The position numbers and the translations under genes are program-made. The notes below the pieces were generated by a model. It saw nothing but the letters and a program-made list of their open reading frames with translations. It did not search any database and was not told the DNA's origin. From NCBI GenBank assembly GCA_051294375.1, contig CM119271.1, forward strand, positions 12,335,235-12,399,234: 64,000 bases of DNA, given 5' to 3'. This stretch comes from Paraspadella gotoi. Its lineage: Eukaryota > Animalia > Chaetognatha. Shown here one piece after another: positions 3,690 to 60,391 of the stretch (its first letter is position 1; the number at the start of each line of letters is the position of its first letter).

Positions 3690-3726
<37 letters not shown>

Positions 3727-3871
3727 CTCCTCTCTTGTCTTCTTCGCATACTTGTTTCATTAGACTCACGTGAAAATTCAAGGAGAATCCCTTGTTTGTT
3801 GTTCCTTTCTAACTCTCAGTCTCTATCTCTCATCCTGCTCTTCCTCAATCGCCCTCATCTCTCTCTTTCTC

Positions 3872-3930
<59 letters not shown>

Positions 3931-4232
3931 CTTCTCTCTCCTCCTTCTCTCATTAGTTCCTTTTTTGTTGTTTACAAAATTATTTTTCTTCTTTCGTGGT
4001 TTAAATGTTTTTTACCTTTTTCCCCCCCACCCTTTTTCTTTTCTTTTCTTTTCTTTTCTTTACTTTCTCTTTTTTACATTTTTTCTTCTTCTTTCTTTTC
4101 TTTTCTTTTCTTTTTCCTTTTCTCTTTTCCTCTCTCCTCATCTCTCCTCCTTCCTCCCCCCTCCCCTCTCCCCCCCTCTCCCCCCTCGCTGTGCGGCTCG
4201 TCTTTTTTCTAGATTCAAAAGGGAATTCTCGA

Positions 4233-11559: not shown

Positions 11560-12586
11560 GATGGAGACATCTTTCTTTTCTCTTTCAGGATGAATACCAA
11601 TAACAACAACAGTGAATTAGCGATCGAAGGATCCACGGATTTCTTCAATGATTTGGACGAAGGTGAACCTCAGTTGTCCTGACCTGACCTGACCCCGAGT
11701 TGAACTAACCCGGATCTCCTCCTCCTCCCTCCATTACTTTTCCTCTTCCTCCTCCTCTTCCTCCCCCTCCTCCTTCCTTCTCCTCTTCCTCCCCCTTCCT
11801 CCTCTCGTCCTTTTCCTCCTCCTCTTCCTCCCTCCATCGCTCACTTCTCCTCTTCCTCCTCCCCTCAGACCCCTTCCTCGTCCCCGAGAAGCGTCCGTCA
11901 TCCCCATCGCTCCTCGATCCGGATTCCGGCGCCGAGATTCCCGAGATTCCTGAACCGCTCGTCCTTCCGGCGAGGATTCTCGCGAAGGAAGAGAGTCCGT
12001 CGGCTGCTGCTGCCGCGACTGTCTCCGCTGCGGCTGTCGCGTCGGCGGCGGAGGCTGCGGCGGCAGAGACTCCTGCCTCGGCGACGAGCGTTTCGAACGG
12101 AGAAGGTGGGCTAAGTCAGGGACGGGTGAGGGGGGATTTACTGCGGATTGGCAGGTCCTGCGTTCCAGACCGTGTTTTGGGTCCTTTTTTGGGGCTCTTA
12201 GCAATTATTATTATTATCAAAATGCGATTATTTAATATCTATGCAAAAACTAAATGTGAACCCCGTTACGTATTGAATTGAAGTCGGCGTTAGAGTTAAA
12301 CTGGTTGAGACCCGCAAATATGGATGTATTAACATGTAAATGTAAAAAATAAATGAATCAATGAATGAGTGATTTAATCGATCTGTAATAAATAAATAAG
12401 TAAATCAAATCAATCAATCAATCGGTCATCTCTTATTTGTTCAGCTTCTTTCGTCAAGACTTGCGTCGGACTTTTCGAGCAACTGTCCAACATCGTTCTC
12501 TCCGAGTCGAAGCGGTCGTCGTCGTCGTCGTCGTCGTCTCGTCGAAGGAGCGCACCTCGGTGGAGGAAGAGAACGAGGGAACGGTC

Positions 12587-12667
<81 letters not shown>

Positions 12668-15357
12668 GCTAATATTAAATTTAATGATAAAGGAATAAAA
12701 ATGGGTTGCTTTGGAAAAAGAGAGACGACGACGACGACGACGACGACGACGACCATTTCTTTCCCGAATCCAGGACGAACTCGATGCCAAAGACTCGAGC
12801 TTCTCCGATCAAATTGTCGGTCAACCGAAGACCGACTTCGACTCTTGGATGTCGGCTCATCGAGTCGGCCTCGTAGAGATGGAGCCCGTCAAGCGGATCG
12901 CCCAGGTGAGTCCGTCTTGCGGCGGAGAGAAAGAATAAAGAATAAAGCTGAACTCTAACGATTATCAGGATTTGGCGCCGAAAATTTTAACCAATGACGA
13001 GGAAGAGGAGTCTGCCGCCGCCTCCGTCGGCTACATTCCTTGGTAAGTTTATTTCTTTTCAGTCGGTCAGTCTGTCGGTCGGTCGGTAGGTATGTCTGTC
13101 CATTGGTTTCTTATTCGTTAAAACTATTCATAACTTAATTTAATTCTTATTTAGTACGAAAGTGAGGTATCATGAGACCTTTAAGGTGCATAGTGCATAT
13201 TTAAATAAATTATAAATAAATTATAAAAAGAATGCAAGATCGAATGGCAATGAAAGAATTCTACTGTGGGCGCAACACCCTTGAATTACCGTTCTTGTTA
13301 TCTATATTTACTATTATTAATTATTAATTATTTTACCAAAAAAAAATCAAATAAATTTATAATTAACCTCTTCTTTTGATATCAGGGCTGTCTCGTCATT
13401 GTTCGACTTGATGGACGTCGACAACGACGACGACGACAACGACGGCGTCGACCTTCGCGATCACAATAACAACAATAACAACAACAACAATAACAACAAT
13501 AACAACAATATGAGCATTACTTTACCCGGGTATCGCGACCAAAGCCAATGGCACACGCGAGGCCACGATTATGCTTTTAACACCTCCAACAACGCCGACC
13601 CTCAGGCCCGGTTCAAGAATTTCGCCTCTGGAATGGGTGAGTAGAGGCCCGGTTCGAGCATTTCAACCTTAAGACTAGCAGCTAATAGGCCCGGTTCGAG
13701 CATTTAACCCTTAGACTAAGAGCAATCAGGCCTATCATGAGTTCAGGTCCCGTTATAGCATTTCGCTTCCGAGTTGTGTGAATGAAAGTTCATTAGGCCC
13801 GTTTTAAGCATTTCGGACTTAATAAGTTCATGGTTTATTAGCCAATTCTAATCTGTTTAAAGGCGTTTTGGATAATTGACAAAGTTTGAAAAGTGAAAAG
13901 AAAGTTTGCAATAAAGAGAGACTGTATTAATTCTAAATTGTAAACATAATAATTAATGTTAAACAAAATATTAACCATTTTCCACTGGTCGCCGTACTTT
14001 TAGACATGCCCCAATTTTATAATCCATAATCCAAACAGGCATGTACCAGCCCAGCGCCATCATGGCCTCCGCCGAGCGTCAACCTCCTTTCGAACGCTAC
14101 CAGAATCCCAAGACTCCGCAATGCAAGGTCGGGGGCGGGCCTGCCGGGGCGCCGGCGGCGGTGGAGGGCGGCGCTTGGTCCAGGCTGCCTGCTACGAGAG
14201 CCGGCGTTCCTTGGAGCGCGAAGAAGCAGAGGCAGCCGTGTCTCAAATCCATCAATCAAGAGCCTTACCAAGTGCTGCGGCCCAGCGGACACTGGGTACA
14301 CGGAACGCTGCAACAGCAGCCTTCGAACAAGCAGGTCGAGACTCCGCGGGAGGGGTGAAGCCTAAAGGAAGTGATTGATTGGACCGAGTACCGTCTCTCC
14401 GTTTATTCTTTAAATAGACTTGATCAAAAAACTGCGCATGAAACCTCATACGAAATTATTTCTCTTAAGTTCAAGCGTTATCTTTAGTAAGATTAGATTA
14501 GATTAGATTATATTATATTAGATTATCTTTAGTAAGATTAGATTTCTTAAGATTAGATCTCTTAAGTTCAATTGTTATCTTTAGATCATGAGATCATTAG
14601 ATTAGATTAGATTAGATCATTAATTCTTCTCCAGCTTTTTCTACTTTTCTACTCTCTCCTTTTTTCTCTCTTCATCTGTATTTACTCTCTCTCGTATTTA
14701 CGACTTACTCAGTCTTAAAAAAATACTTTTCCTTCCAAACTTACCTTTCGATCTCTCACCCACCGCGCAGGCGCAAGCGACTCGAGAAGATCCTTTCCCT
14801 CGCTACATACCCAAAGTACAGAAGTGCAGCGCTCGACCAGAATATCGAAAGAAGACGACCGACCAAGGAGTTGCGTCGTCGTGCAAGAGACCCGCGCCTA
14901 AGAAACGCCCGCTCATTGACATGAACAAGGTGACGAGGAGCAGAGAGAAGGAAGGGAGGCATGGCATGGATACGGTGGGCAACGAGCATGGCAGGGTTAA
15001 GGAATGGAGGGAAGGAAGGGACATGGACAATTGGACATGGATTAGGTTAGAATAAAGGCGACGGGTAAACTTAACTTTTGTTTAATATTAATTTAACTTG
15101 ATTACAAGCAAATTTGGTTGTGTTGTCTTTTTTTTTTAAACGTGAGTCTTTGACCCGAATTTGACTTTGACGATCTCGTTTCGTCTCCAGGTCCGTTGCA
15201 ACTGTCCAGGTCTTTACCCTCAACATCCTTCGCACGGACCTGGAAATTATTGGGACGAGGAAGACGACGACGAAGCGATTTTGGCGGGTGAGGACTCGGG
15301 AGGGTTGAAGACCGGTTCCAACGCGGTTGACTCGTACGGACAGCGTTAGGTTTTTAT

Positions 15358-15388
<31 letters not shown>

Positions 15389-17000
15389 CCCCCAAAGGGA
15401 TGTGCCAGGGCGACGACGAGACCGAGTGTGGGCAGGGAGTGGACACTATCTTCCCGCTGGAGGAATGGGCCGACGAGTGGGAGGACGGCATCACTAGCGG
15501 CGAATGTCTGAGAGGCAGATTGGCTCCCGGTAAGGATTCCATCGCCTATTGTTCATTTGTTTTTCAAGTTAATCTCTTTTTTTTTAAAACTTTTAATGTC
15601 TTTTACTTTCTATTTTGGTTTAGTTATATTCATTTAGACTTACATATTTTTTTTTTATGTTAAGGAACGTTGGAGCTCCGTCCTTGGGAAAACCCTTGTT
15701 TGGAGGAGCTTTTGAAGCGGAAAGCCAGGTTCGCTGCGGGCGCCGTTTTCGGGGGTGGGAAAACAAAAGACATAATAAAGTGAAACTAAAATTTAACTCT
15801 TTTAAATCAAAGGGGGAATGAACGATAACTATTATCTATAAATTTTAATTTTTTTAAAATTAAATTAATTTATTAATCTAATCGCCGTTTCCCCTAAACA
15901 GAATTCAAGATCTCCGTAACAAACGATGGAGCGCGTTGGACAAAGCCCGGAGCGAGGTGGCAAGGCTCAAGGCCGAGGCTGCTGCTCCCAAGGGAGAAGG
16001 TCAGCCGCCTGGGCCGTCGCCCGAGCAGGAACAGGCTGTCAGGGACGCTAAGGATGCTGAGCGAAAGGCCTTCAACGATTTCGGACAAAAGAGTTGGTCT
16101 TTGTGGGGCTGGTTCAGCCCGTCCAACTGGGCGACGGGGAGCGACGCTCAATATTCCAAGACGGTGAGAGGACATGACATGACATGACATGACATGAAAT
16201 GACATGACATGACATGACATGACATGAAATGACATGACATGACATGAAATGAAATGACATGACATGACATGAAATGACATGACCTGAAATGAAATGACAT
16301 GAAATGACATGACTTATGTCGTCCTATGTTCGTTTTGTTTTTCTGTTTTCTTTTGTTATTTGTTTTGTTTATGGTTAATATTTGTTAATATTTGTTTGTT
16401 GTTTTTCGAGAAGTTTTTTTTCATTCGGACAAAAAAAAAAAAAAAACGAAAGAAGGAAAATCTCATAACCTTTTTAATCCTGGTACAATTTCAATTTCAA
16501 TCACATTTATTAAGATTGTCTTGGTCTTTGTCATCCCGATTTCACCGGTACCAGTCGTTTTTAAATAAATCGCTATGAAGCTTTTATCTGACTTAACCAC
16601 TACTAATATCGCCGCAACTGTCACCTTCAATCACCCTGCATCTCCTCGCATCTCCCTGCATCTCCCAAGAACCGGGACAGCATGACCTGCACGGTGCGAA
16701 CCTCCTCGGGTGGAAACACCTGCACGCCCGATCAACGCAAATGCGCGTCGGATCAGTACGGCAGTCGCCAGGCCTGCGCCACAAACGCCTGCAGCAGTAA
16801 CAGCGCCACCGACTCCCGCTTCAGACGCAGCAGGATCGTCACCAGCAACAACAACAACAACGAGACGAGTTCGGCGGCGGCGGCGGCGTCGGCGTCGCTG
16901 GTGGCGACGGGAAAGTGCTAAAGAGGCGGGCCGACTCGGCGCAGTCGCTTCCAAGGTGAGTGAGACAAGGAATGAAAGGTCACCGGTTCGAGCCACGGTA

Positions 17001-17061
<61 letters not shown>

Positions 17062-17274
17062 CTTCTCCTCCTCCTTTCTCTTCTCTCTCTCAGTCGCCCT
17101 CGTCGCCCGGAAGATCTCAATGACTACGAATGGGATAAAAGCGAAGATTCGATCGAAGAATTATAACCGACGAATTCTGGTAAAGAACCGACGATCGAGC
17201 ATCGAGGAGACAAAGAGAAGGATACAGCGATTGCAGATGGAACAGAACAGAAAAGAGAGGATGAGGAAGGTGAG

Positions 17275-17327
<53 letters not shown>

Positions 17328-19788
17328 CAGCGATCAGTTTCTTATTTTCTTGATTCCTCCTAGTTTCGTTTTGCTTTTTCATGATGAGAGAGAGATGGGA
17401 GTAGGTTTGATATTAGAAAAGTGAATTCTCATCGTCAACTACATCCAGGAGAGAGAAGAGAAGGAAGAGCAGCTTCGCCGCGGCGGCGGCGGCGGCGGCG
17501 GCGGCGTCTTCTCCTCCGTCTACGGATTCTTTTCCGGCGGCGGCAGCGGCAGAAGCAACAGCAACAGCACCGGCAGCGGCAACTCCGCAGCCAACAGCAA
17601 TCACAACAACCGCAGCGAAGACGAAGACGACGAAGGCGACATCTTAAGTCAACGTCTCTGCCTCATTGAATCGGAAGACGCCCTCTACAACGACAACAAC
17701 AACGCCGCCAACAGGCAAAAGCTGAAAACAAGCTAATCTTATCAATCCAAAAAAAAATGCATTGATCGGTCGATCAATCAATCAGTCGACGAACTAATTA
17801 TTTACTTGATCGATCGATTAATGGGATTAATCAATTAATAAGATTATTCAATTCAATCGACCAATCACCGAATCAATCAATCAACCATTCACATATCCCC
17901 CACCAGATGCTTCCGCCCCTGCCCTCCTTGTCCCCAAGAGGAGTGTCCCCCGCCTCCCTTCGAATGCCCCTGCAACGACATCAGTTGCCCCAAGAAACTC
18001 TCGCCGAACAAGAAGAACGTAAAGCCGTCGGACGTGTCCTTAGGCGTCGGCGACTTGGAAGTCTCCGTCAACGTGGGGGAAGATCTCAGCATAGAAGGTT
18101 CGAATGGGGCTTGTAGTCGTCGTCGTTATTGTCGTCGTTTTCGTCGTCGTCGTCGGCTAACACCGGTGGCGAATTTATTGGAAGTCGACGCAATGAAATG
18201 AATGTCGTACGACGTAATAAGTGGTTACGAAATGTCGGAGAAAATCTACTATCTATACAGTAAATGAGAATCGATTGCTTTAGATAGGATGAATTCTTAA
18301 CCGATCAATTTCATACGTAACGTTTTATTAATTACGACTAATGTTTAGTTATTTTTTAAACTATTTTTCGCTTCGGGAGAGAAAAAACGATCAGTCGATC
18401 CGGTTTTTTTTTTTTTTTTTGCTGGAAAAGTTAGTTTATTTTTTTACGAGTTCAGTTAAATAAGGGGGCAGCTCTTTATACGAAGAAACTATTTTGCTCG
18501 GAAAAAATAAAAATTAATACTAATTGAAGAAAGCTATAAGAGTGATGGAGTCCGAAGTCCGAATCGAATGAAACAAGTTTAAAATTGATTATCTTCAGTC
18601 AATACATTAATAGATAAATCTATCAATATATAAATCATTTAATCTTTCCCCGCCCCCAGGTATCGACGTGGGCGTTCGAAAGCCCCCGCCCGATCTTTCC
18701 ATGGGCTGCCCTTGCGGCGACGATGACTGCAAGAAAAAAGTCTGCAATCCTCCGCCGAAGCAATGGGGCATTTGCGAGATGCAATACGGTGAGTCGCCAA
18801 TGGCCCAATGGGTCGCCCTTGTGTCATTGTTGGTGACCGTTGATTTCTGGATTTAGAGCAAATGGCCGTCCAAGAGGCTTGCGGGGGCGAGTGCGAGCGG
18901 GACTTTTGTACGCCCGAGGACGAACCGACTCAATGTCCTTGTACGGACGGGAATTGTAAGAACAAAATCGGCGGAGACCGAGGATTTCGATTCGTTTATC
19001 CGCCAAACGATAAGATGAAGTACGATGAGGACGGATGTCCGAAGGAGACGCAGCTAGAGTGTTTCGTCACCCAAAACGGGGAGGTAATGTGGGAGAAAGA
19101 ATGATTAAAAGAGATACAGCTTGAGTATTTCGTCACCCAAAACGGGGAGGTAATAGGGAGAAAGAATGATTAAAAGAGATACAGCTTGAGTATTTCATAT
19201 TTTGGGGAAGTAATAGGGGGAAAAGGGCTGCACAAAAGATACAGCTTAAATATTACGTTGTGGAAGATAATTCGCCGATCCAAAATATAACCCAAAATAT
19301 AGAGATATGGCCGCTTTGATACAGAGAAAGAGAAAAAGGGTGCTTAAAAAAGATACAGCTCAAGTATTACGGCTTTCAAAATAAAAAGGTTTTAGGGGAA
19401 AGAACGAAAAGTGGCTTATAAAAAAGCACTTAAAAAGATATAGCTTTAGAATTACAGGGGAAAAGGGGGAGAACTGCTTAAAGGGGATACAGCTCAAAAC
19501 TGTGAGGTACGTTTAAAAAAAAGGTCCTTTTAAGGAGTGTTTCGCAACCCAAAATGGGAAGGTATCAGAATGGATAACCTCCCTTCATGCATTCTCTATT
19601 CCCCGTCAAACAGGAGCCACCTCAGGTGGTATGCAAACCCGTTGGTGGAGTGAAGCTCTTCTGCACCACCAAGGTAGTCCCGCCCTGCCCTTGTCCCGAG
19701 TTGGAGCGGATGGAGCTGGACTCTTGCGACTGCATGGGGAACGCGTGGGGCGAAGAGCTTGACGATGAGGTAGAGAGAGAGCAAAGAG

Positions 19789-19875
<87 letters not shown>

Positions 19876-20551
19876 AGAGAGAGAGAGAACGAAGAAATTT
19901 CAAATAATATAAAGCAAATAACATTAATAAACAATTAAATGATTGATCGAATGGATAAAGTAATATAAATAAAAAGATACAAGAATTGATTAAAAAATAA
20001 ATAAATAGATCAATTTATTGTTTCAATGCTTAAAAGGAGTTTCGTATGTATACCTTTTTCAAGTAATCACTGTAATGACTGAACAAATAAATAAAAGAAT
20101 GACTGAATAAATGAACGAATGAATGAACAAAGGAACAAATGAATGAATGAATGAGTGTATAAAACTCTTACCAACCTACTCAACCGAAACTTTAACGATA
20201 ACCTTCAACTTGACAACCGGTTTCCTCACAAACGGGTTTTTCGTCCTTCTCCCCTTTATCCAATTGTTTTTTTCTTTTTTCCAATAAATTTATTTGTCGC
20301 CTTTAAAAAAAAAAATAATGAAACTATGAAGTCCAACGCGAGCGGGAAAATCTTTCTGGGTCATTTTTGCCGCGATGTTCCCTTTTGGGACGACGAGGTT
20401 TCCTGGAAGACATGGAATCCCGATCTGACGCCATGTTTTCTCGACGTGGTCCCGGCATGGATTCCATGCATCTACCTTCTCTTCGCTTTGATGATTCGAA
20501 GGCCCAACATTTTTGGTTTCATTTCGAGAAAAAAGGAGAAACAGCGAACTA

Positions 20552-20591
<40 letters not shown>

Positions 20592-23500
20592 TATGAAACA
20601 CCAAAGACGGATAAACTCGGCCCAACTCTGTCTCTGTCTCGTTTTCGTCAGTATCGTCGTAACGAAATTGATTTTGCGCGTCACGATGGCTCTTTCCTCG
20701 TCGTCGTCGTCGTCGTCGTCGTCTCACCGATTTTCCCGCCATTTCTCTTTCTCCGTCGCTTTCGTCGTTGACGAGACGATCGCGTTGACTTCATCCATCT
20801 TGGCGACGATGTTGGCCGACGCCCAGCGCCGCCACGCCCACTACGCTACTTCCGCCACCTCTCTCACGTTTTGGACGCTCGTCTTTTGTCTTCATTTGTT
20901 ACGAGTTCAACATCACGCGAGGAACGATGAAGGTGAAACTCACGGTCCTCGTGAGTTGAGTGATTCGTTGGCCTTCGGTGATTATTTTTCGGCCGTCGTC
21001 TCTTTGGCTCTGATTCTCACCAACTGTTTGAGAAGCGTCGGTCTTAAAGGGAGCGACTACGACCGAGCCTGCGCCTTTTCGAGATGGACATTTTTCTGGA
21101 TCGTTCCGACTTTGATGAAAGGAGCGAAAGAGGATCTGGACATGTCCGATTTGGACCCTTTGCCGGACGAATACGCGACGAAGACTCTGTTGAAGAATTA
21201 CGAGAAGAGGTCAAGGTCGAGTGGGGAGATTGGGAGAAATTCATCGTCCCCTGTTTTAAGTCTGATTCGATGTTACCAAATGGAATTGATATTACTTTGC
21301 GCCGTGAGAATCTTTTACACTTTGATTCAATTGATAAAACCTTTGAGTCTCGGTTGGATCATCGATCGACTTTCGAATCGAGATGGAAAAATCCATGACG
21401 ACGACCAATGGAAAATTTCTTTTTTCTTTTTTATTATTTTTTTCCTTTCGATCCTCGAATGTTTCTTCGCTTGGAATTTCTGGTGGTTCATGAATTTTCT
21501 CGCCGTCAAAGTTCAGAATTCGGCGATGATTCTAGTGTTTAGGAAGAGTCTGAGCCTCGATCCCGTCGTGCGCATGCGCTTTACGACCGGGGAAATTGTC
21601 AACTTGATGAGCGTCGACGCGAGGAAATTCTTTACGGGACTGGAAATGCTCGTCGCCGGATTAGTTTATCCTCTGAAATTGATTTTGGTCACCTGGCTTC
21701 TTTACAACCAACTAGGCGCGGCCATCTTCGCCGGTTACGCCGTCTTGATCTTTTGTCTCCCTCTCACGATTTTGGCGGGAAAGAGGATCGTGGGACTTCG
21801 ACGGGAAAACATGATCGTGAAAGACGAAAGAGTCAAGTTGTTGAAGGAACTTTTGTGCGGGATTAAAGTCGTCAAATTCAACGCTTGGGAAAAGTTATTC
21901 GTGGATAAAGTATCGAAAATTCGCGAGAAAGAATTGGAATCTTTGAAACGAGTTTCTTATTGGAAAGCGGCGTTGGAATTTAATTATCGAGCGGCGCCTT
22001 CGTTGGTCAACGTCGTCGCCTTTCTCTTTTTCGTTTTATCCTCGAAGGATAATTTATTGACGCCTAAAAAGGCTTTCGTTTCTCTAGTTCTTTTCGATTT
22101 ATTTCTCGTTCTCATGTGGGGAATTCCTGAGGCGATTTATCAAAACGCTTCGATGTGGATCGCGGGTGGGAGGATCGACGCGTTTTTGAAAGAGGAAGAT
22201 AGAGAGAGAGACGATTATGAGTGTATGGATAGAGATGCGACGGTGAGGATCGAGAAGGCGAGCTTTTCTTGGAACGACAACGACGATAAGATTTGCCTTT
22301 GGGACGTCAGCCTCGATTTAAAACGTGGCGAATCGTTGGCCGTCATCGGCCCCGTGGGTTCGGGAAAATCCACGCTGCTCCTCGCTCTGTTGAGAGAAGT
22401 GAACAAAATTGGAGGACGAATTAATGTGACGAAAAACGTTGCCTACGTCCCTCAGCGACCCTGGATCCAAAACTGTAGCGTTAAAGACAACGTTTTATTC
22501 GGAAAAGACATGGATCCTAAACTGTATCGCGAGGCGTTGAGAGCCTGCGCTCTGGAGCGAGATCTTACGGTCTTTCCGGCCGGAGACGAAACTGAGATCG
22601 GAGAAAGAGGAGTAAATCTCTCTGGCGGACAAAAGATGAGAATATCTTTGGCCAGAGCGATTTACGCCGACGCCGAGTTGTATCTTCTGGACGATCCGCT
22701 CGCCTCGGTGGATCGAAGCGTCGCCGACCACATCTTCGAGAACGTCTTGTCTTTGAGGGGAATGTTGAGAGGGAAGAGTCGCATTCTGGTCACGAACGAT
22801 GCGTCGCGCTTGGTCGATGTGGACAAGCTTTTGTGCTTGCAAGATGGGAGAGTCGTTCGATGCGGAAACGCGAAAGAGTTGATGAGTGAAAATCCGGAAT
22901 TTTCAGCCAAGGATAAAATATTAAATGTGAAGGATAAAGTTGATAAAAAGAGTTTGAACACGAAAGACAAACGATGTTATTCTTCGTTTCAATCGGGAAA
23001 ATTGATCGCCAATGAAACTCCGATTCGTGGCGTCGTTTCGATGGACGTTTTCGTCACTTATTTTAAGAAATTCGGCGGTGGAATGACCCTGGGCTTTGCC
23101 CTTACCTTTTGCGTCAGGCAATTTTTGGAATCATCCGCGAGCGTGAAGCTTTCCCATTGGGTAGACGAATTGACCAATGAGAGTGGAGGAAATATTTCTT
23201 CATCTTTTACAGTCTACGAAAGAAACCAAATCAACTTGATCGTTTACTCTCTTCTCCGTATAATTTCTCCGGCGTTTCTCGGCCTCGCCATGATCTTTCA
23301 CACTCGCGGGGCCATCAACGCCGCACGTCGCCTTCAAGAAGATCTCCTCAAACGGGTCGTCGTTTATCCGATGTCCACCTTCGACACGGTGCCTCTGGGT
23401 CGCATCATGAATCGATTTTCGTCCGACGTGGAAGTCGTCGACTCGACTCTTCCGGAAAAGGTCTTTATCGTCGTGGAGAGCTTCGCGATTACGACCTTCG

Positions 23501-26500
23501 CTCTTCTCGTCATCTCGTGGAAGAAGCCCTCGTTTCTTGCCGTGGTCGCCGTCCTCGTTCTCTGCTGCTCTCCCGTCAAGCGTTTGTACATTGAAGGCAC
23601 CCGTCAGCTTAAGCGGCTCGAGTTTATCTCTAGATCGCCGATATTCTCCGCCTTTCACGAGGCGTTGGACGGGATTTCTATCATAAGGGCCTTTCGTCAA
23701 GAGGTTCGGTTTGAGGAAGAATGCGTCGCTCATATGGACGATAACATGCGACCATCCTTCTTGCTGTGGGGAGCCAATCGATGGATCTCGTTCAACTTGG
23801 GAATTCTTGGCTGTTTTGTTCTTCTTATCTGTTCCCTCTACGTGATTTTATCAAAAACGATATCAGCCGGAGAGGCGGGACTCATAATCAGCTTGGCTTT
23901 GCAAATAACGGAGGCCATTGGCTATTCATTCCGGGAAATCGCCTTCACTGAAAACTTGTTCGTCGCCGTGGAGCGATTAAAGGAATATGCGGGTTGGTCG
24001 ACGGAAGGTTCGTTGGAAAATCAGGATCTGGAGTCGAGTTGGCGACCGAGGATGGGACGCATCAAGTTTGAGAATTACGGCGCGAGCTACAGAAAAAATC
24101 TTGGCTTGGCCCTTGAAGGATTGAACTTTTGCATCGAGGGTGGAAAAAGAGTAGGAGTTGTTGGCAGAACGGGAGCCGGAAAATCCAGTCTGGCTCTGGC
24201 CCTTTTTCGAATCTTCGAAACTACGGAAGGTTGGATCGAGATCGATGGCTGGAAAATAAAAGACATTCCTCTACGGCGACTTCGCTCCAGCTTGTCCATC
24301 ATCCCGCAAGATCCCGTCATATTCTCAGGAACTCTGCGTTGGAATTTGGATCCTTGTAATCGACACGACGATGACGAACTGTGGAGAGTCTTGAGTCTGG
24401 TAAATCTCGATATCTTTGTAGCCGAGACTCGGGATGGTCTGGATACGATCTGCTCCGAGGGCGGGGAGAATCTTTCTCTGGGTCAGCGTCAACTAGTTTG
24501 TCTGGCTCGCGCGATCCTTAGCGACGCTCAAATCCTTGTGTTGGACGAAGCGACGGCGTCGGTGGACGTGGAGACGGATCGCGTCATTCAACGGACGATT
24601 CGTCGCGAGTTTCTTGGTCGGTCGGTCATCACCATCGCGCATCGATTGGACACCGTGATGGATTACGACGTCGTCATCGTCATGGAAGATGGAAAAGTTG
24701 TGGAGTTCGACGATCCGAAAAAATTGATAGAGGATGACAATTCCGCGTTTTATTCTTTGACTAAAAATTTTGAGAGAAAAGAGGAATGAAGTGAGAATTA
24801 ATTTGAGGAGTGGTGTAGAATATTTTTTACTTCGTTTCGAAAACTGATCTTTTGTTTATCCCGCATTCGCGAGAAACCAGTCTTTTCTCTCTCGTCCTAT
24901 TTTTAATTCGGTTCACAGACGATATCCTGCACGTTACCGTTTTTTGCTGCTTCGAATTTAATGCCAAATTCTCTGCTTATTCAACGCCGTTTATTTCGAA
25001 AGTTAAAATGTATATTTTTATGCTTATGTTATCGCCAAATTTCTATAAAGTTCGACGTGTATACCAGGTCCGTCTTAATGGTTTTTAACTCGTTTTTAAT
25101 AAGTTTTTAATGCGTTTATAATTCGAACATTTTATATTAAATCGTTGTATAATCTGTTTCACAGTCCAGCGGCTGCTTTCTCGGATCCCATTCCGACGCT
25201 TTTTGCGATGCTTTACGGCTGCTTTCTCGGATCCCATTCCGACGCTTTTTGCGATGCTTTACGGCTGCTTTCTCGGATCCCATTCCGACGCTTTTTCCGA
25301 TGCTTTACGGCTGCTTTCTCGGATCCCATTCCGACGCTTTTGCGATGTTTTACGGCTGCTTTCTCGGATCCCATTCCGACGCTTTTTCCGATGCTTTACG
25401 GCTGCTTTCTCGGATCTCTTTCCGATGCTTTTTCCGATGCTTTACGGCTGCTTTCTCGGATCCCATTCCGACGCTTTTTGCGATGCTTTACGGCTGCTTT
25501 CTCGGATCCCATTCCGACGCTTTTTCCGATGCTTTACGGCTGCTTTCTCGGATCTCTTTCCGATGCTTTTTCCGATGCTTTTTCCGATGCATTACGGCTG
25601 CCCTTACGATTTTATTACGGGAATTCATTATGGTTCTATACAATTGGATGTTTGCTTATTTTGAACGTTTATACTTCGTTATGTTATGTTATATTACAAC
25701 AATATATGATGCTAAACTGTAAAACACGTCTTCAATGCTTAAAGTCATACAAAGTGAATAGCCCGCACCTAGGTTTAGTAGGAAAACCTAACAAGTGGCA
25801 TTGGCTGGGAAGATGGGTATCTAGCTAAAGGTAGGTTCTAACTAGTCTCTCATCAGGGAAAAGAGGTAAGAAGGGTAAGGAATATATTGGTAATAGGTAA
25901 ATAGCTATAACAAAGGGAACAAGGGTACATAAAAGGGAGAGAAGGGAGAGGGAAGGTTTGCAGACCCGAGACCGAGAGAAGAGTTGAGAGAGTGAGTCCG
26001 ATCTCCAAGACTCTATCCGTGACTCCGGGGATGAAGAGGAGGGGACGACGAAGGGAGGAGAGGAGGAGGAGACGTTGAGGGGGGGAGAGATGATCCGGGG
26101 GGGGGGAGAAAGGCCCTGGTGATAGGGTGAGCATTAGGCTTAGCAAATTTTAAAAAAGTTTTTTACAGAATTTAGCACTATAATACAAATAGTCCCTATA
26201 TGCTACTAATTTTTTTCTATCTTGTTTTTTGAAAAAATCGATCAATAAGTGCTTGCAACTCTTCAAAATTGCAAAAAAACGGTTTTTTCATTAAAAATGA
26301 TAGATATCTTAAAAAATATCAGTCGGAATCAAATTAACCTGCATCCAATTTAAGAGCGGAAAAAAATACTCATTTTAATACTTTATTTTTAAAAACCAAA
26401 AAAATACTTTTCCAATTATTGATGTTTAAAAAACGGGAGTTCTCGGCATTTTTAAGTCACATTTTTTATTTTCCTTTTATAACTTTGAAAATAATATAAA

Positions 26501-29500
26501 ATAAGGTATAAAACAGACTAAATCCTCTAGAGTAAACCTTGGGCTTCTATTGGCGTAAATAGGTATTGTTTTTTTAATTTTGTTCAGGAGCTATGAATGT
26601 TAAATCCTGAAAAAATTTTAAAAAATTATTTATTTATTATTTTTGTCTGTGTGCTTACAATTTGAATGTTTATATATCTTCATTATCTACAAACATAAGC
26701 TTTAATTTGAGACCTCTCCCAACTTTTTACGATTTTCATTATTGAATTATACTAAAAATAAATTTTTTTAAAAAAAAAGATTAATCAATTAGTACTTTTC
26801 AAATGGATATTTTTTTAAAATAAAGATACAAAAATACAGTTCTACTTATAAGGGGGCTTAAAAACCAAATGTTAAAATAAAAATAATATAAAATTATATA
26901 AAAAATAAATAAAACAGATTATTAACTTTATTTTTTATAAAAATATATGATGTTTAATTAAAATAATCTCAAATAAAATAACAGGTATATAGTAGTTGAG
27001 TGTTTTAATTTAATCTCATATCCAGCTTTTAATAGCAATAATATTTGTTATTATTTACGAAAAAAATTATTTTGTAAAAAAAATATATCATTAAAAAATG
27101 TTAAAATCTTTTTCTGATCTTTAATTTTAGAATATTTACCCACTTTATCTTCATTCCCAATCCTATAAAGTAGTAGTTTGACTAAAGCTACAGGGTTTAG
27201 CCATAGCATAGCCATAGTGAGTACTTTTTCAAAAACTACCTTACAAATATGTAATTTAAGTAGATATCCAGAATAATAACCTGTTTTCAAAAAGTATAGA
27301 ATAATTCTTACTTTTTATATGACGTATCAAATTTTAAGAGCTTTTTATGGAGACGAATAATTTATTTGCCAACAATTTTATTATTAGACGAACATGTTTC
27401 GGCTCACAATTTGAGCCTTCATCAGCGTCAAAGTTCTTTGTGAATTACTCACAAATTTTTCTTCAAGCTTATGCTCTGTAGATAATGATAGATGTATAGA
27501 CATTAAAATTGTAAGCATTTTCACTAAACTATTTAAAAAATTTTATAAAAAATTTTCAAAAACTTTAATGAGCATTTAAAAAAAACCTGCCTTTATCGAA
27601 TTTTACTGACCTACCACATTAAGTGTCTCATGGGTATACTTTAAGATTTTATAGGTTTCAGAGATGGCACTTTTTTTGTTTCTTTCACATCCTCTCTGCT
27701 CTACCGTGTCTTATTATTGTTATTAGCAAGGCTTATGGCGCCACCCTCGAGGTTATTATAGATCAATTTACTAATAAATAATATTAAAAAACATATATGA
27801 ATATAAACATAACAGTAGAATTATTGTTAACTTAAATTCAAAGAATAGTATTAGAAAAATCTTTCAAAAATGCAATTATTTCCTTTTTTTTAGTTCTGAA
27901 ATATTAATGTATTTAATAATTTTAGTAATATACATGTATACATATAATTTATAAAAAAAATTAAAATATCTAGAACTATGTATAATTAACCAGAAAAGCT
28001 TAAAAATAACTAATTTTATTCTAGAACCATTTTATTTAAAAAAACAACAGCTATTTTTGAACCAGAAGTGGTACGCCACATAAAGTGGCGTGGAAAGTCC
28101 ATAAATCACAACCTGAAAATTTTTCATTGTGATATTCGTTTTTTTAAATTAAAATTGGAATAAGAAACTTTGCGAGAACTAACAACTTTTCTAAAGTAGG
28201 ATATTTTTGGGAGCCCTATTATACTTGTTAATATTTTGGAACATTTTTATTAATAATATATATCAAATATTGAGTGAGCTACTGTATTATTATTATTTGT
28301 AAATATTTTTTTTCATAATAATAACAAATATTATTACTATTAAAGCTGGATATGAGATTGAATTAAAATACTCAACGAATATATATATATATACCTGTTA
28401 TTTTATTTGAGATTAAGTTTTAATTAAACATCATATATTTTTTATAATAAAATAAAGTTAATAATCTGTTTTATTTATTTTTTATTATAATTTTATATTA
28501 TTTTTATTTTAAACATTTGTTTTAAAGCCTTATAAGTAGAACTGTATTTTGTATCTTTATTTTTAAAAAAAATATTCCATTTGAAAGTACTAATTGATTA
28601 ATTTTTTTTTTTTTAAATTTTATTTTTACGTATAATTCAATAATGAAAAATCGTAAAAAGTTGGGAGAGGTCTTAAATTAAAAGCTTATGTTTTGTAGAT
28701 AATGATAGATATATAAACATTCAAATTGTAAGCACACAGACAAAAATAATAAATAAATATTTTTTAAAATTTTTTTCAGGATTTACAATTCATAGCTCCT
28801 GAACAAAATTAAAAAACTATACCTATTTACGCCAATAGAAAGCCCAATGATTACTCTAGAGGATTTAGTCTGTTTTATACCTTATTTTATATCATTTTCA
28901 AAGTTATAAAGGGAAAATAAAAAAATGTGACTTAAAAATGCCGAGAACTCGGTTTTTTAAACATCAATAATTGGAAAAGTATTTTTTGGATTTTTAAAAA
29001 TAAAGTATGTAAAATGAAGTATTTTTTCCGCTCTTTAAATTGACGCAGGTTAAATTTGATTCCGACTGATATTTTTTAAGATATCTATCATTTTTTAATG
29101 AAAAAAAACCGTTTTTTTTGCAAATTTTGAAGAGTTGCAAGCACTTATTGATCGATTTTTCAAAAAACAAAGATAGAAAAAAATTAGTAAGCATATAGGG
29201 GACTAATTTGTACTATAGTGCTAAATTCTGTAAAAAACTTTATAAAATTTGCTAAGGCCTAGTGAGCATCAATCTTGATTGGACAATGGACAATGGAAAT
29301 TGGACATTGGAAATTGGACAATGGAAATTAGACATTGGATATTGGACATTGGATAATGGAAATTGGACAATGGACAATGGAAATTGGACAGTGGACGGGC
29401 GAAACTGAATGTGGATTGCTAATTGTCGTTGCGTGGATTATAAAGAAAATTAATACTTAATTTTTTAAAAAAATTATGTAAAAGCTATTTAAAAATATAG

Positions 29501-29617
29501 TTTCTGCCTCAAAACACGAAGTTTATTCAAAAAACTGAATTTTTTAGTAATAATTTTATTTTTTAACTGTTTTCGTCTTGATCCAAACCTGAAACTTAAA
29601 ACTTAAAATGTAAGAAA

Positions 29618-29688
<71 letters not shown>

Positions 29689-32600
29689 GAGAGAGAGGCT
29701 TCTAACCATTCCCAATCATTGAGCCAGGACGAGCCGTGCGGTCCTCCAGAGCCGGCGAAGGAGCCGCCCGACGAATGCTCCAACGAGGATGTTGAAGGAG
29801 GCGGAGCCAAAGGGGAAGAGTTCGAGTGGGACTATTGGGACGTGAGTTGAAGGGGTCGGGGTATGGAAGAGGGGCAGGGCTTCGGTGATGAACATGACAA
29901 ATACATAAAAGAATTTATGAGTTTTTTTTTTATCGGAAAACATGTATTGAAATAAAGAAATACGTGAAAAAAATTTCATAGAAAATAATAAATCCAAATT
30001 ATATAATTGTGGTAATATTTAAAAACCATCAATAGGTGTTTTTAATCCTTTTACATCAAAAACCACCTGACCGCCTGACCTATTGCCTTTCTCCCCCTCC
30101 ACCACCCCCCACGTGGACCCAGGGTCCGTGCGGAGATGATTCCCCGGAGGAGAAGAGTAACTCGGAATGCGGAGAATACATGGCGGTGCGCAAGGAGACT
30201 GGCATGGGAAATAAGGCGGTGGCGACGGCCAAAGCCTTGGAGGCGTTCGAGCAGGAAAAGTTGCGTCAAGTAAAATTGGCGCAGATGGCGTCGCAACGAA
30301 AAGAGAGATTGGCGGAACTGAGGGCAGAGGGACTGACCGACCCGGAAATTTGGGATATTCTTTGCGCCGGAGACGATAAGGGTCCGTGCGCTCTGGCCGG
30401 AGAATTTCCGCACCAAGATGCTTGCGATCCCGATCCGCCCCTCGTGGGCTGCCCCTGCCCGGATCCTCAATGCCCGAAGCGGGCCCCGTTCGATTATCAA
30501 ATGCACGAAGTCGATCTCTCCAAAATCGTAGGCGAGTTTTGAGTATCGTTTATTTTATCTTTAAATATTTAAATCGTTTATTTTATGGTGGACTAAAATC
30601 CACCAACCGTTCATCAGCGGCCATTGGTGGCAAGTCATTCGCCTCCCAACCCAAAGGTCCGGGGTTCTAGCCCGGTGGTCGTCTGGCAGTTAAGAGGGAC
30701 GGGGCGCTTAACCCGCCTGTAACATGGTGTTACAGCCTGATCCGAAGCTCAGGGACTGCTTATATTGAACGGTTCTATCACTAACTCATAACAATAATTA
30801 CTGTCTCTTCAATTTTAATCTTTAATTCGTGGCAAACGATAAGACTTAGTTCAGATCAGAATAATTTTATTCGCAACAAGAGACAAAACGTGAATGAAGG
30901 AAAAATATCAGGAGATGCTAAGACTAAGACAAAGGAAAAACGGTTAAGCCAGTTGGTGAATGAGGTCAATGACCTAAGAAACGATTAAACGGTGGTAAGT
31001 GAATGAGGGAGAAAGAGTTCATGCGTGTTCTTAGTGAGGAGAAATATCGGTTGACCACAAATTAATCTTTCTATCTCTCTGTGTTATTTTTTTCTATCCT
31101 CTTTCTTTCTTGCTTTTTATTTTTATCTTTTTATCTTGCTTTATTTCTTTTCTTAGACTTAGGGAGAGAGAGCGAGACAGAGACACACAGAGAGAGAGAG
31201 AGGTCCAGCAAAGCTAAATCCCCTGCTCCCTCTTCTTTTCCCACTCAGACAAGAAACTCTTACGCAGCGCTGAGAAATACTTAGCGAGCGACGCCTTCAA
31301 GACGATGGAATGCGAATTACGGAATCCAACTTATTACGACATCAACAAATGTTATCCAAAGAGAAAAGGAAATAAATGTCCTTGTCCAGAATGCGTCACT
31401 GAAGAGGACAAAGCTTGGGCCGAGGTCCGTCCTTGGAAAAAGGACAAAGGACAAGAGTGTTTTTTTTTGTTGGGTTTTTGTTTTCAGTAATTGTTATTAT
31501 TATCGTCTTTCTCTATTTATCTTTTTTTTATTTATCTTTTTCAGTCTCTCTTTCTCTCTCTCTCCCTTCAGTTGGAAAAGATGAGGATCGGCCCTCCCCC
31601 CGAGTGTCCGTGCCGCGACCCCAAGTGTCCGAAAAAAGATCCAAAGAACGATGAAGAAAATCAGGAAGAGAAGGACGAATGCGGACCGTGCGATATGAAG
31701 GGTACGGGGAATGCCGTACATGACGTCTGTATTAACGAGAATAGAATGGCAACAGCCGGGTTGCCTGTGATGCCCATTGGGATGGGGGATCTCACTGATG
31801 GCTTTGGGGGCTTCCGACCCTCAGTGACGCCTCCTGTCACTGGCGCTGTAACCCTAGGACGGTCTCACTTTGCCAACGCAGAGGGAAGTCGTCAAGACTG
31901 TGGATGGAACACTACGACTGGGCTGGTATGATCCCCCTCTGAGCCAATAGATTTGGCTGAACTAGCGGTGTGAATATATATATGTATATATATATATCTA
32001 GATTATTAAAGTGACTTGACAAAAGTCTCGCCCAATTTTATAAACATTCTGTCATCCCATCATTGTTCACCGATGCGACGCTTTCAGATGATTTGTCAAG
32101 ATTAATTACTGTAAATTCTCTAATGATACATGATATTTAACCAAATATCGGCCGCGTTCTTCTAGAAATTGGATTTTTTTTTCATAATCACGTCAGCTTA
32201 TTGTTATTTAACGTTTATTCTAACTTATATTTCTTAGCTCTTATGATTTATTAGTTACGAAAGTTGCAAAATTACCCGTTTCACTATACTTTACAAATAA
32301 TGCGAAAATTATACAATCGTTGGTTTCATTCGTATGTAACAGAATGAAACGCATGTGTCACATGAACAAATTACCCGTTGTAATAACTGTCTCTGTCTCT
32401 GTCTGTCTCTATCTCGCAAGGCTACTACCCTCCTCAATCCGGATGCCCGACCATCGTTCGATGCGATCTCATCTGCAATCCTTGCGACAAGAAGGAAGAA
32501 TGCGACAATTCGAAAGCGAAGAAGCCGGAGCCTCGATACAAGTGCGGACCCTGCAGCCTCAAACACCCCATGCCGCCGCAGGTCTGAAATTAAAACGAGG

Positions 32601-32830
32601 CTCGGCGCTGGATCGATTCCGAGCGTGTGAAGGTCTCATCGTCTGACTTACTCCTATTCTTAATTCCTTATTCCGCAACATCTGCTCAGTCGGCGTGCCC
32701 CGACTATGACTGCCACAACTGCGCCCTCGTATGTCACGTTTGCGGCTGCAGACCCAAGTTGTGTCCAAAGTGTGAAGAGGGAAATCCTCCGCCTCCGCCG
32801 GTTGTTCTCAGAGAGAGAGAGAGAGAGAGA

Positions 32831-32865
<35 letters not shown>

Positions 32866-35800
32866 TCAGCCAGATGCTTAGATGGATAGCGAGTGAAATT
32901 AGTGATTAACGCAGTAACCGGTTTCCACTAAAGCCTGAGTCATGATTCAATGTGGCCCGAGAAATGACCTCTTTTTTTAAACTTCGTGTTAACAAAGAAT
33001 ATTTAAAAAATGTTATTAACCTAAAGAAAATAATGCTTATTTTTATTAATACATATTCTTAACTTTCCCCATTGCTCCTCATCTCGCCGCCATCTCCAGG
33101 AGGGCGTACCTTGCCCTCCCTGTTCAATTCCGGGTCCTTACCCAAAACAATCGGACTGCAAATTGCTTCATCCCTGCGACTGGGAACATCCCTGCATGTG
33201 CGACCCCGCGTCCGGTGACCCTATCAATCCCGAGCGATGCGGTCCATGTCAATACAAACATACTCCGGGTTATCCGCCTCAGGTAATAAGAGTCAACGTC
33301 GTTTGGAATAAAGAAGTTAGGTTTGAAGAGGGGTTGCGAGATAAATGTCTCCAACATGAATGAACCTTGTCGAAAATGCTTAAACAATAGTGATATATCA
33401 TCTAGTTTTGAAATGACTCGATACGTATTCGTTCTACGAGGGGACTATCTCGCTCTCAAAGCTTTCTTAGGCGGTAGACGGTCAAACCTTTGAGAGGTTG
33501 CAGACAGAATGACGCATAATGTTGTTCAAAAAAAATTTAAAAAGGAGTAAAAAAAAAAAAAAAAAAAGGGGGGAGAGTCACCAGTCGTGGCCACTGGCCA
33601 GTCCCTCTTCGTGGCTCAGTCTCCCCTCTCTTTTGTCATCCGCTAGAAGAGAGTGGATGTCGCGTTTTCTTCGTTGTCGTGACCGTTGAAAACCTCGTAA
33701 CCCTTTACTAACGTGAACGTTGATCGTATTTTATCTTTCGAACCCCAGAGTGGTTGTCCCGGCGAACCTGGGGAATGCGAGAAGATTCGAGATCCGCAGG
33801 AGAGAAAATGTTGCGAGTTGAAAAAGGCTAAAGGAGGGAAACTCGGATTGGCGGTGAGATGAAAATGAGGGAGCCTGGTTGAATGAATTGTAAATGAATA
33901 TATGAAATTGGTACAACCAATATAAAAATGATCCATTCATTTAATAAATAAGCTATCTTGCCCCTGACTTTGGACAGGCTTTGGTGGTTTAAGGCCTCCA
34001 TCACTCTTACAAGCTAATGACATAGCAAGTCCCTGCAAGCTTTCAATCAAGACTCTCTCACAGTCTCGTTTATTCACTCCCAGAGTACCTGGCTTCCCTA
34101 TCAATGAAGTGGTATAATATTTCAAAGAATGTTTCAATTGTATGAAAAGACCACTCCCTTAAGTATTAGATCGGGGAATACTTATTGTAATCCGCACTAG
34201 CATCAAAATACAAAGAGCTGAATTTTATGAAATTGGTACAACAAATATAAAAATTATCCATTCATTTAATAAATAAGCTATCTTGCCCCTGAAATTTGGA
34301 AAATTACTCGTTCGATTATAATTTATAACTATCGTATCGAATTCTTTCATTTCGTTTTGTTTGAGATTAGAAGAAAAACAAGATTTATCATCGTTGTCGC
34401 TAACAAATCTTGTTTTTCTTCTGATTTATAACTATAAAACGCTAGATTTATCTATGCAAATATTCTGGCGACTCGAATTAACTTCAGTCATTCAAACATA
34501 AAACAGGATGCGTCAAAAATCTCCCTGTTGGACGAGTTCGAGAAGCGAGATTTGGACGGACAAGAACGGATGGTCTACAACGATGGAGGAATTGAGGTGT
34601 GGAGATAAATCTCTTATAATTGGAAGATGAGACTTAATTTAAATAAATAATTAATGAATTAATTCAACTTTGAAGCTTTCTCAATTTTTATGGTTGGTTG
34701 AAAATGTTTCTACTCAATAAACTGATTCCAATAAAAGCGCATATATAACAAAGAGAGCCTTTTTTTTACTTTAAATTTTAATAATCCAAAAAAATTAATA
34801 AATCGGATTAAATTAGACATTTCATAACAAATTCAACAAATTTTTTTTAACGACACATTTTGGTTTTTTTTTTTTTTTTCAACAGGGATTCTTTCTCAGC
34901 GAAGACAAGGAAAATCTGAGAGGAGATGCGGGGGAGCAATTGCAAGGATTCGATGGTGAGAGAAAGAAAAAAGAATTGAATTCAAAAGGAACCATCGATT
35001 CGTTAAGACTTTTTCTAAGACTTTTACGAAACGCCCCGGTTCAACTTAAATTCTGAATTAAATTCGTTTTTAGTTTTAAAAATTAAGTTAAAAAAAATTA
35101 TAAGGTTTAGGATTTAATTTAAATCAGAGATGTGGAAGCGATCGATATATAGCCGCTGCCAATCCGGCGCTTCCAAGACCCCTCCCGCTCCCGTTTTTCG
35201 GTGCAATCCTTACTTTTTTAGCCCGGATCGCTTTCGGTTTCGAGTGCACATCGCTTCCTTCTTTTAGAAATTTTATATTGTTATTATTTTAAAAATACTC
35301 TCTTTAGACAGGTAATTCATTGGTAAAATAATTTTTAAACAATCTTTTTTGTTAATAAATAACAAGTGAAATTTTTACTATGAAAAATTGTAAGATTTTA
35401 AGATTGTAATAATCGTTCGAGTGGAAATGAGTTTAAAAATGAAAAAAAACAAAACCTTTTTCCCTATTTGCGCTTTCTTTTTTATTAAATATAAATACAA
35501 GCTGCATTAATTATTCAATTGATCAATTAATTAATCAATCAATCAATCAACTAAACCACTAATCAATCAAAATCACTTAAAAATTAATGAATCAATTTTT
35601 ATCAATTATTAAATAATCAATTAATTTATCAATCAACTAATTAATAAATTTATTTATCAATAATTATTAAAAGAACTAATTAATTAATCAATCAATTAAT
35701 CAATCAATTAAACAATGTCAGTGTTATCATTGTCATCTCCAACGTCGTTGTTGCTTTTGTCCTGGTCAGTGACCTGACAAAAAGACCTAAAAATTAACAG

Positions 35801-60356: not shown

Positions 60357-60391
<35 letters not shown>

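What the first reader, a model, noticed from the sequence alone, without database searches (positions are those of the whole stretch)
19614..29841. Full-length intronless MRP/ABCC gene nested on the SAME strand inside a ~10 kb intron of a Cys/Pro-rich gene
Seen: exon 19614-19769 (..CDCMGNAWGEELDDE|gtagag, phase 0, no stop) has no partner exon before ABCC. Exon 29728-29841 (cag|DEPCGPPEPAKEPPDEC.., phase 0, no start) continues the same style of protein, and CPCxDxxC motifs occur on both sides. The 4.46 kb intact ABCC ORF lies between them. Known: animal ABCC1-type genes usually have around 30 exons, and most nested genes are antisense. Inference: ABCC is a retroposed or intron-stripped gene. 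The host must read through its poly(A) site, which suggests mutually exclusive expression or use of ABCC as an alternative last exon.
Basis: partly seen in the sequence, partly recalled or inferred. Interest (0 to 1): 0.8.

Follow-up and report, generated by a model that had tools for sequence, protein, structure and literature searches.

The report
Intronless transporter gene inside host intron
A complete, intron-free drug-pump (MRP/ABCC) gene lies on the same strand inside a 10-kb intron of an unrelated cysteine/proline-rich gene whose flanking exons are found spliced together in RNA; it is a real but familiar kind of gene-within-a-gene, likely a retroposed copy with its own promoter.

Summary
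The nesting is real. An intact single-exon ABCC1/3-like frame (20326-24789, 1487 aa) lies in a 9,958-nt intron (19770-29727; median of 29 modelled host introns 289 nt). One RNA contig runs from exon 19614-19769 straight into exon 29728 (27 letters). Five transcript-length homologues (1432-1867 aa, two clusters) carry both halves in one protein. A 3.1-kb foldback transposon also inflates the intron. Likely mechanism: an RNA-derived ABCC copy landed in a short intron, uses its own promoter, and is skipped by the host. Nothing seen supports ABCC as an alternative last exon. Origin is unproven: no parent gene could be sought, there is no poly(A) tail, and neighbours are also intron-poor (MCT-like 0 introns, DUF4485 gene 1). 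ABCC's own transcript was not tested. In Drosophila about 29% of nested genes are same-strand, and about 72% of those are single-exon (PMC3814207), so this is a new, large member of a known kind. The scan noted like cases on other genomes (e.g. e1-10608720).

The parts
11589..19769 (+). Host gene, 5' part: 19 modelled exons. Boundaries of the first exons (11589-13042) are tentative, and 16670-17269 holds at least one 1-nt indel against RNA.
   Evidence: 8 RNA joints in run X1 between 14330 and 19612; colinear tblastn with P0122/P0123; 7 exons 13386-16163 open in one frame; my first boundaries for exons 2-3 did not keep the frame
19614..19769 (+). Host exon before the long intron (ends ...GNAWGEELDDE), phase-0 GT donor
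   Evidence: homologue residues 899-950
19770..29727 (+). 9,958-nt GT-AG intron, 34 times the median of the 29 modelled host introns; (GA)n tracts at both ends (19795-19873, 29623-29674)
20158..20164 (+). TATAAAA 168 nt before the ABCC ATG: candidate promoter element, weak (29 such words on the + strand of the window)
   Evidence: inference
20326..24789 (+). Single-exon ABCC1/3-like (long MRP) ORF, 1487 aa: TMD0-TMD1-NBD1-TMD2-NBD2. An out-of-frame ATG at 20318 opens a 3-codon frame over the start.
25136..25141 (+). ATTAAA, first poly(A)-signal-like hexamer after the ABCC stop; no AATAAA until 26757
   Evidence: use as a signal is inferred
20022..25743 (+). 13-nt exact direct repeat at 20022-20034 and 25731-25743 flanking ABCC: possible target-site duplication, weak
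   Evidence: 9 of 500 shuffles reach 13 nt; found after the fact; no poly(A) before the right copy
25170..25600 (+). Tandem array of a 46-nt unit, about 10 copies
   Evidence: family D1
26135..29261 (.). Non-coding foldback DNA transposon: arms of about 950-970 nt, 91% alike; 8-nt target duplication (26127-26134 = 29262-29269); longest stop-free stretch 87 codons. The hAT-like label is recalled.
29728..29841 (+). Host exon after the long intron (DEPCGPP...EWDYWD)
   Evidence: RNA loose end; homologue residues 955-990
29728..38775 (+). Host gene, 3' part: 11 modelled exons to 37978, plus exons at 38304-38555 and 38731-38775 that match the homologue's C-terminus; exact last exon not settled
   Evidence: no RNA laid here

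Best explanation
An intact single-exon MRP1/3-like ABC exporter gene sits on the sense strand inside one intron of a roughly 30-exon, family-less Cys/Pro-rich gene that splices across it, and it is likely an RNA-derived (retroposed) copy, likely transcribed from its own promoter. Shown: the open frame, its transporter motifs, the host splice 19769-29728, one host protein across both halves. Inferred: the copy landed in what was a short GA-tract intron; a foldback transposon added 3.1 kb independently. Inferred: having no splice sites of its own and only a weak poly(A) signal, ABCC is removed with the host intron, while its own mRNA would start near 20190 and end near 25150, probably in other cell types than the host's. 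Predicted: the protein is an ATP-driven exporter of glutathione conjugates and organic anions with one working ATP site, as in MRP1. The host is likely a disulphide-cross-linked structural protein (about 9% Cys, 11.5% Pro); a likeness to sperm-tail Cys/Pro proteins is recalled, not tested.
For: RNA: 8 joints in X1 match modelled host introns, and the one loose end listed at 19770 is exon 29728. Five long homologues read NAWGEEIDDE straight on into the next exon's sequence; their contigs (5.7-6.2 kb) are transcript-sized. ABCC: best solved relatives ABCC3 854 and ABCC1 839 bits, then ABCC2 785, Ycf1 731, ABCC4 663. It falls among 30 animal or unnamed MRP1-like rows (SH-aLRT 92, unstarred), on the longest branch, 2.67 against a median of 0.64. 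NBD1 LSGGQ and NBD2 Walker A/B (DE) and H-loop are present. At least 66% of the ORF's sampled words are in run X1. No AATAAA between the stop and 26757. This is the only host intron of 29 with GA tracts at both ends; three others have them near the donor only. Drosophila: 72.5% of same-strand nested genes are single-exon, and 42% of young duplicated same-strand ones arose via RNA against 17% of opposite-strand ones (P = 0.054; PMC3814207 passages).
Against: No parent gene, poly(A) tail or convincing target duplication. Un-nested neighbours are intron-poor too: MCT-like 0 introns in 2.2 kb, DUF4485 gene 1 in 2.6 kb, DCAF5-like 3 in 2.5 kb, so lack of introns need not date from the nesting. The chaetognath genome paper found no burst of retrotransposition among duplicates (PMC12460157 passage; that this window is an arrow worm comes from earlier notes). 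ABCC words in X1 could come from host pre-mRNA or DNA: faint intronic contigs exist (depth 3-8). The TATA-like word is common (29 in the window). TMD0 is below the Pfam cut-off (22.7 of 27 bits) and holds Asp and Ser runs; the NBD1 H-loop has Asn where 106 of 120 listed hits have His. No close orthologue was found.
Confidence: 0.6

Rival explanations
1. The ABCC gene lost its introns earlier, in a lineage-wide stripping of conserved genes, and was then moved into the intron at DNA level, or the young host gene grew around it by gaining exons on both sides. Expression as in the main reading.
For: Intron-poor conserved neighbours against about 5 introns per kb in the host; no poly(A) tail; the host has no Pfam family (0 for 5 long homologues) and few relatives, so it may be the younger gene; PMC12460157 reports no retrotransposition burst.
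Against: Intron-poor neighbours can themselves be old retrocopies; three of four still keep introns, whereas ABCC has none over 4.46 kb; no terminal inverted repeats were seen around ABCC.
Confidence: 0.2
2. ABCC has no promoter and is cut out of the host's pre-mRNA by spliced-leader trans-splicing plus intronic polyadenylation: an operon inside an intron.
For: Earlier notes mark the genome as an arrow worm; there about half of genes are trans-spliced and 18% lie in operons (PMC12460157 passage). Two AGs upstream of ABCC (20037, 20064) score 2.8 and 2.2, within the lowest 5 of 30 modelled acceptors and like those before the MCT-like and DCAF5-like starts.
Against: Ten ATGs lie between the AG at 20064 and the ABCC start, whereas each of the five other genes checked has an AG within 80 nt of its ATG with none between; published chaetognath operons are genes under 250 bp apart, not nested.
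Confidence: 0.08
3. Assembly artefact: the true intron is short (donor, GA tract, acceptor) and the 9.7-kb block was placed between two GA tracts by mistake.
For: Both ends of the block are (GA)n tracts, where assemblies often break; other GA-bearing host introns are 179-299 nt; the assembly has at least one exonic indel against RNA (17159); RNA and homologues cannot show intron length.
Against: It needs two false joins; the window has no N; GA tracts after donors and before acceptors are common here (22 tracts of 16 nt or more on either strand).
Confidence: 0.06
4. ABCC is an alternative last exon that gives a host-ABCC fusion protein.
For: The AG just after the ATG (next base 20332) and four well-scoring AGs inside the ORF are in phase 0 with the donor.
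Against: The 20332 site scores -11.1; the internal ones would cut off TMD0 or more; no such loose end is among the rows shown (46 hidden); 5 of 5 long homologues lack ABC sequence at the junction.
Confidence: 0.03
5. A recent, unexpressed retrocopy that has not yet decayed.
For: Perfect 13-nt flanking repeat; no protein-level or transcript evidence specific to it; longest branch in the tree.
Against: 1487 open codons with the working ATP site intact; a fresh copy implies a near-identical parent with the same long branch, which could not be checked.
Confidence: 0.03

Closest known systems
Same-strand single-exon nested genes of Drosophila (Lee and Chang 2013, PMC3814207; Assis 2016, PMC5174743; passages read)
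   Same: Protein-coding gene wholly inside a host intron, sense strand, no introns, fast-evolving; the class is explained by selection against mis-splicing.
   Different: CDS 4,464 nt against a median of about 818 nt; here the guest is the conserved-family gene and the host is the family-less one; independent expression not shown.
Long MRPs ABCC1/ABCC3 (PDB 8vt4, 8hvh)
   Same: TMD0-TMD1-NBD1-TMD2-NBD2, degenerate NBD1 Walker B (DD), LSGGQ in NBD1, DE and H-loop in NBD2; 33-36% identity over most of the length.
   Different: No introns (human ABCC1 has about 31 exons, recalled); weak TMD0 with Asp and Ser runs; shorter NBD1-TMD2 linker; Asn at the NBD1 H-loop; orthology to ABCC1, 2 or 3 unresolved.
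Chaetognath SL-resolved operons (PMC2481426, PMC12460157; passages read)
   Same: Same-strand genes close together in a genome that earlier notes assign to arrow worms.
   Different: Operon genes lie head to tail, under 250 bp apart; this gene is inside an intron and lacks a clean upstream acceptor.

Membership tests
Nested (intronic) gene, same strand | Lies between two exons that are spliced together | tested here: met
   RNA loose end 19770 to 29729; 5 of 5 long homologues continuous across the site
Nested (intronic) gene, same strand | Genomic contiguity of host exons and guest | not testable with these tools
   No DNA run listed, no genome; no N in the window, GA tracts at both ends
Nested (intronic) gene, same strand | Guest has its own start and end of transcription | tested here: inconclusive
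ABCC long MRP (ABCC1/2/3-like) | Two ABC_membrane and two ABC_tran domains | tested here: met
   2 stretches each, above cut-off
ABCC long MRP (ABCC1/2/3-like) | N-terminal TMD0 | tested here: inconclusive
   PF24357 E 1.2e-4, 22.7 bits against a cut-off of 27; 4 hydrophobic peaks before residue 250, against 5 and 4 in two reference MRP1s
ABCC long MRP (ABCC1/2/3-like) | Asymmetric ATP sites (NBD1 Walker B ending DD, NBD1 LSGGQ; NBD2 DE, H-loop, altered signature) | tested here: met
   motif meanings from established knowledge
ABCC long MRP (ABCC1/2/3-like) | Groups with animal MRP1-like proteins | tested here: inconclusive
   SH-aLRT 92, unstarred, long branch, quick tree of 41 of 43 chosen rows; no AU test
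ABCC long MRP (ABCC1/2/3-like) | ATP-dependent export of glutathione conjugates | not testable with these tools
   needs a vesicle transport assay
Retrogene | No introns in the coding sequence | tested here: met
Retrogene | Intron-bearing parent elsewhere in the genome or in relatives | not testable with these tools
   no close orthologue
Retrogene | Poly(A) remnant | tested here: not met
   none seen between the stop and the transposon; expected to decay in old copies
Retrogene | Target-site duplication | tested here: inconclusive
   13-nt repeat, 9 of 500 shuffles, found after the fact
SL-resolved operon gene | Spliced leader on the mRNA, acceptor just upstream of the ATG | tested here: inconclusive
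   nearest acceptor-like AG is 262 nt upstream with 10 ATGs between; mRNA 5' end not seen

The most novel reading that the evidence does not exclude
ABCC is a promoterless guest: its mRNA is cut out of the host's intron by spliced-leader trans-splicing and intronic polyadenylation, so one pre-mRNA yields either the 1,800-residue structural protein or a full-length drug exporter. That would be an operon folded inside an intron, in a phylum whose known operons are head to tail.
Probability: 0.08. Interest if true: 0.65.

Novelty: new member of a known kind. Interest (0 to 1): 0.3.

Why it matters
It is a well-supported, unusually large example of sense-strand nesting: a 4.5-kb detoxification pump skipped inside the intron of a likely abundant transcript. 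It fits, and does not overturn, the rule that sense-strand guests are intronless. It warns annotators that the host will be split in two or fused to ABCC. The host, a family-less Cys/Pro-rich protein of about 1,800 residues conserved at about 52% in unnamed relatives, is undescribed as far as these searches reach. If the trans-splicing reading held, the locus would be a direct test of how trans-splicing competes with cis-splicing on one pre-mRNA.

Tried and rejected
No whole genome is held, so no search for paralogues or a parent. No RNA holder is on record as RNA; X1 is a guess that its spliced joints support. X2 and X3 gave only short repeat-type matches. Reads were laid on 14001-20100 only, so ABCC coverage, its ends, and the far side of the junction are open. 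Metagenome scans: TMD1 of ABCC, 48 pattern matches, 0 confirmed; host exon alignment, 599 matches, 0 confirmed; so no synteny test. ABCC homologue searches (top 120 of 211 and of 453 listed, only about 8,000 candidates scored each) gave nothing above 42% among near-length proteins or 52% among shorter ones; the exact ABCC and MCT-like proteins are not in the collection. Host: no Pfam family, no ESM Atlas hit in 2 searches, 5 short unnamed relatives among 1.84 billion representatives. Rfam: 0 matches in 19700-29900. The promoter scan is bacterial and uninformative. The home-made acceptor matrix ranks the true acceptor only 15th of 530 AGs in the intron, so it cannot exclude sites. Horizontal transfer from fungi or bacteria was considered as a cause of intronlessness and set aside (animal MRPs score highest; tree), without an AU test. 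Capture by the transposon was rejected: ABCC lies outside its arms. Two separate Cys-rich genes was rejected. Literature searches listed no paper on this locus, on an intronless nested ABCC1-type gene, or on nested genes in chaetognaths ('nested' 0 times in the main text and 3 PDF supplements of PMC12460157; its spreadsheet could not be read and may bear on gene models).
Full report
The observation. Exon 19614-19769 ends in phase 0 at a GT donor, exon 29728-29841 starts in phase 0 after CAG, and between them lie 9,958 nt with one long open frame, 20326-24789 (1487 codons). The other 28 host introns I modelled are 63-2,889 nt, and the median of all 29 is 289.

The host is one gene. Run X1 holds 0.79 of the sampled words of 17800-25000. 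Laid on 14001-20100 it shows 8 joints that match modelled introns: 7 GT-AG, and one that reads GC-AG within its 3-letter slack. Contigs on exons carry depth figures near 2,900-3,300, those on intron pieces 3-8. The tool warns that contig depth cannot rank genes, so I take this only as spliced RNA with a faint unspliced or DNA background. The one loose end listed behind 19770 is 27 letters identical to 29729-29755. That is one contig, below the tool's 31-letter bar, and 46 loose-end rows were not shown. Two inferences strengthen it. The bin 19713-19916 averages 925, which is what a contig of depth about 3,200 ending at 19770 gives. And a 31-letter-word assembly (word size recalled) would end this path after exactly 28 exon letters, where the spliced and unspliced paths merge.

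Independent support comes from proteins. A search with one upstream exon found two unnamed proteins of 1,780 and 1,854 aa; their clusters add three more of 1,432-1,867 aa, all on 5.7-6.2-kb contigs. Both searched proteins align colinearly with exons from about 12,400 to 38,775 on both sides of the intron. The 16 exons 17449-37978 form one frame of 883 codons, 51-53% identical to 5 of 5 long homologues, each of which runs from NAWGEEIDDE directly into the next exon's sequence. The host has no Pfam family and no Atlas hit. Its core is 8.7% Cys and 11.5% Pro with five CPCxDxxC motifs. A cross-linked structural role is my inference.

The guest. It has two ABC_membrane and two ABC_tran domains and a weak TMD0 match. 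Solved relatives rank ABCC3 and ABCC1 first, then ABCC2, Ycf1 and ABCC4. The best database hits are animal MRP1/3 at 33-36% over most of the length, with no close orthologue. In a quick tree of TMD2-NBD2 (41 of 43 chosen rows; 2 dropped for short coverage) it lies among animal MRP1-like rows with SH-aLRT 92, on the longest branch, so its place is unsure. The motifs of the working ATP site are intact; the NBD1 H-loop is Asn where 106 of 120 listed hits have His.

The rest of the intron. A non-coding foldback element fills 26135-29261, with arms 91% alike and an 8-nt target duplication. A 46-nt tandem array follows the ABCC 3' region. The intron has 17 AATAAA, none between the ABCC stop and 26757; the first variant is ATTAAA at 25136. 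A TATAAAA lies 168 nt before the ATG, one of 29 in the window. The nearest acceptor-like AG upstream is 262 nt away with 10 ATGs between, while each of five other genes has an AG within 80 nt of its start and none between. The in-frame AG just after the ATG scores -11.1 on a matrix built from the host's acceptors (leave-one-out range -1.2 to 16.7). That matrix ranks the true acceptor 15th of 530, so it is weak. A 13-nt direct repeat flanks ABCC (9 of 500 shuffles), with no poly(A) before it. This intron alone has GA tracts at both ends, which fits an insertion into a short GA-bearing intron and also leaves a small chance of a misjoin.

How it likely works. Shown: the host splices across the block, and the ABCC frame is intact. 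Inferred: ABCC came by an RNA intermediate, has its own promoter inside the intron, and is tolerated because it brings no splice sites and a weak poly(A) signal (0.6). Against a specific retroposition here, neighbours are intron-poor: MCT-like 0, DUF4485 gene 1, DCAF5-like 3 and Kelch-like 3 introns in my models, which have no RNA behind them. Earlier intron loss is therefore the main rival (0.2). Trans-splicing from host pre-mRNA (0.08), misassembly (0.06), alternative last exon (0.03) and an unexpressed young copy (0.03) follow.

Comparison with what is known. In Drosophila 71% of nested genes are antisense; of the same-strand ones about 72% are single-exon, median CDS about 818 nt, and nested pairs are less co-expressed than neighbours (PMC3814207; PMC5174743; passages). 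Nested genes typically make up 5-10% of genes, 12.4% in a glass sponge (PMC10282587, passages). Earlier notes of this scan assign the genome to arrow worms; I did not test this. There, nearly half of genes are trans-spliced, 18% are in operons, and no burst of retrotransposition was found (PMC12460157, passages and three PDF supplements searched; PMC2481426, passages). Six literature searches (listings only) showed no paper on this locus or on a nested intronless ABCC1-type gene. The scan has noted like arrangements in other genomes and antisense nesting in this one.

Verdict. What stands out is the size of the guest and the undescribed host. Interest 0.3.

Noticed in passing
window 17159: The RNA contig lacks one base present in the window; the window's frame hits a stop here while the homologue match changes frame at this point: likely an assembly indel or an allele. 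Exon 16670-16955 also fits no single frame well.
   Followed up: partly
window 17715-17906 and 30532-31248: Two GC-AG introns in the host model; the first has RNA support, the second only frame continuity.
   Followed up: partly
window 15448-15492: Loose ends in X1 continue with similar but different sequence on both sides of the FPLEEWADEWEDG segment: a paralogue of the host, or a related organism, in the same run.
   Followed up: no
window 42083-44275: Second intronless transporter: MCT-like (SLC16) ORF of 730 aa, not nested, with an AG 14-18 nt before its ATG.
   Followed up: partly
window 47036-58375 (minus): DUF4485 gene (2 exons, 876 aa), Kelch-like gene and DCAF5-like gene lie head to tail and intron-poor; operon-like, no RNA laid.
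   Followed up: partly
window 59500-61100 (minus): Exons of a receptor tyrosine kinase read by eye, Ryk-like (name recalled, no call).
   Followed up: no
window 31730-31975 and 41330-41580: Two similar copies of a dispersed repeat of about 240 nt, seen by eye; another pair at about 10080-10270 and 30600-30790 is inverted.
   Followed up: no
window 1200-5200: Irregular satellite arrays that look like uncorrected long-read sequence.
   Followed up: no
window 37845-38775: The modelled exon 37845-37978 ends in a stop, yet homologue matches continue at 38304-38555 and 38731-38775: alternative 3' ends or a wrong boundary in my model.
   Followed up: partly
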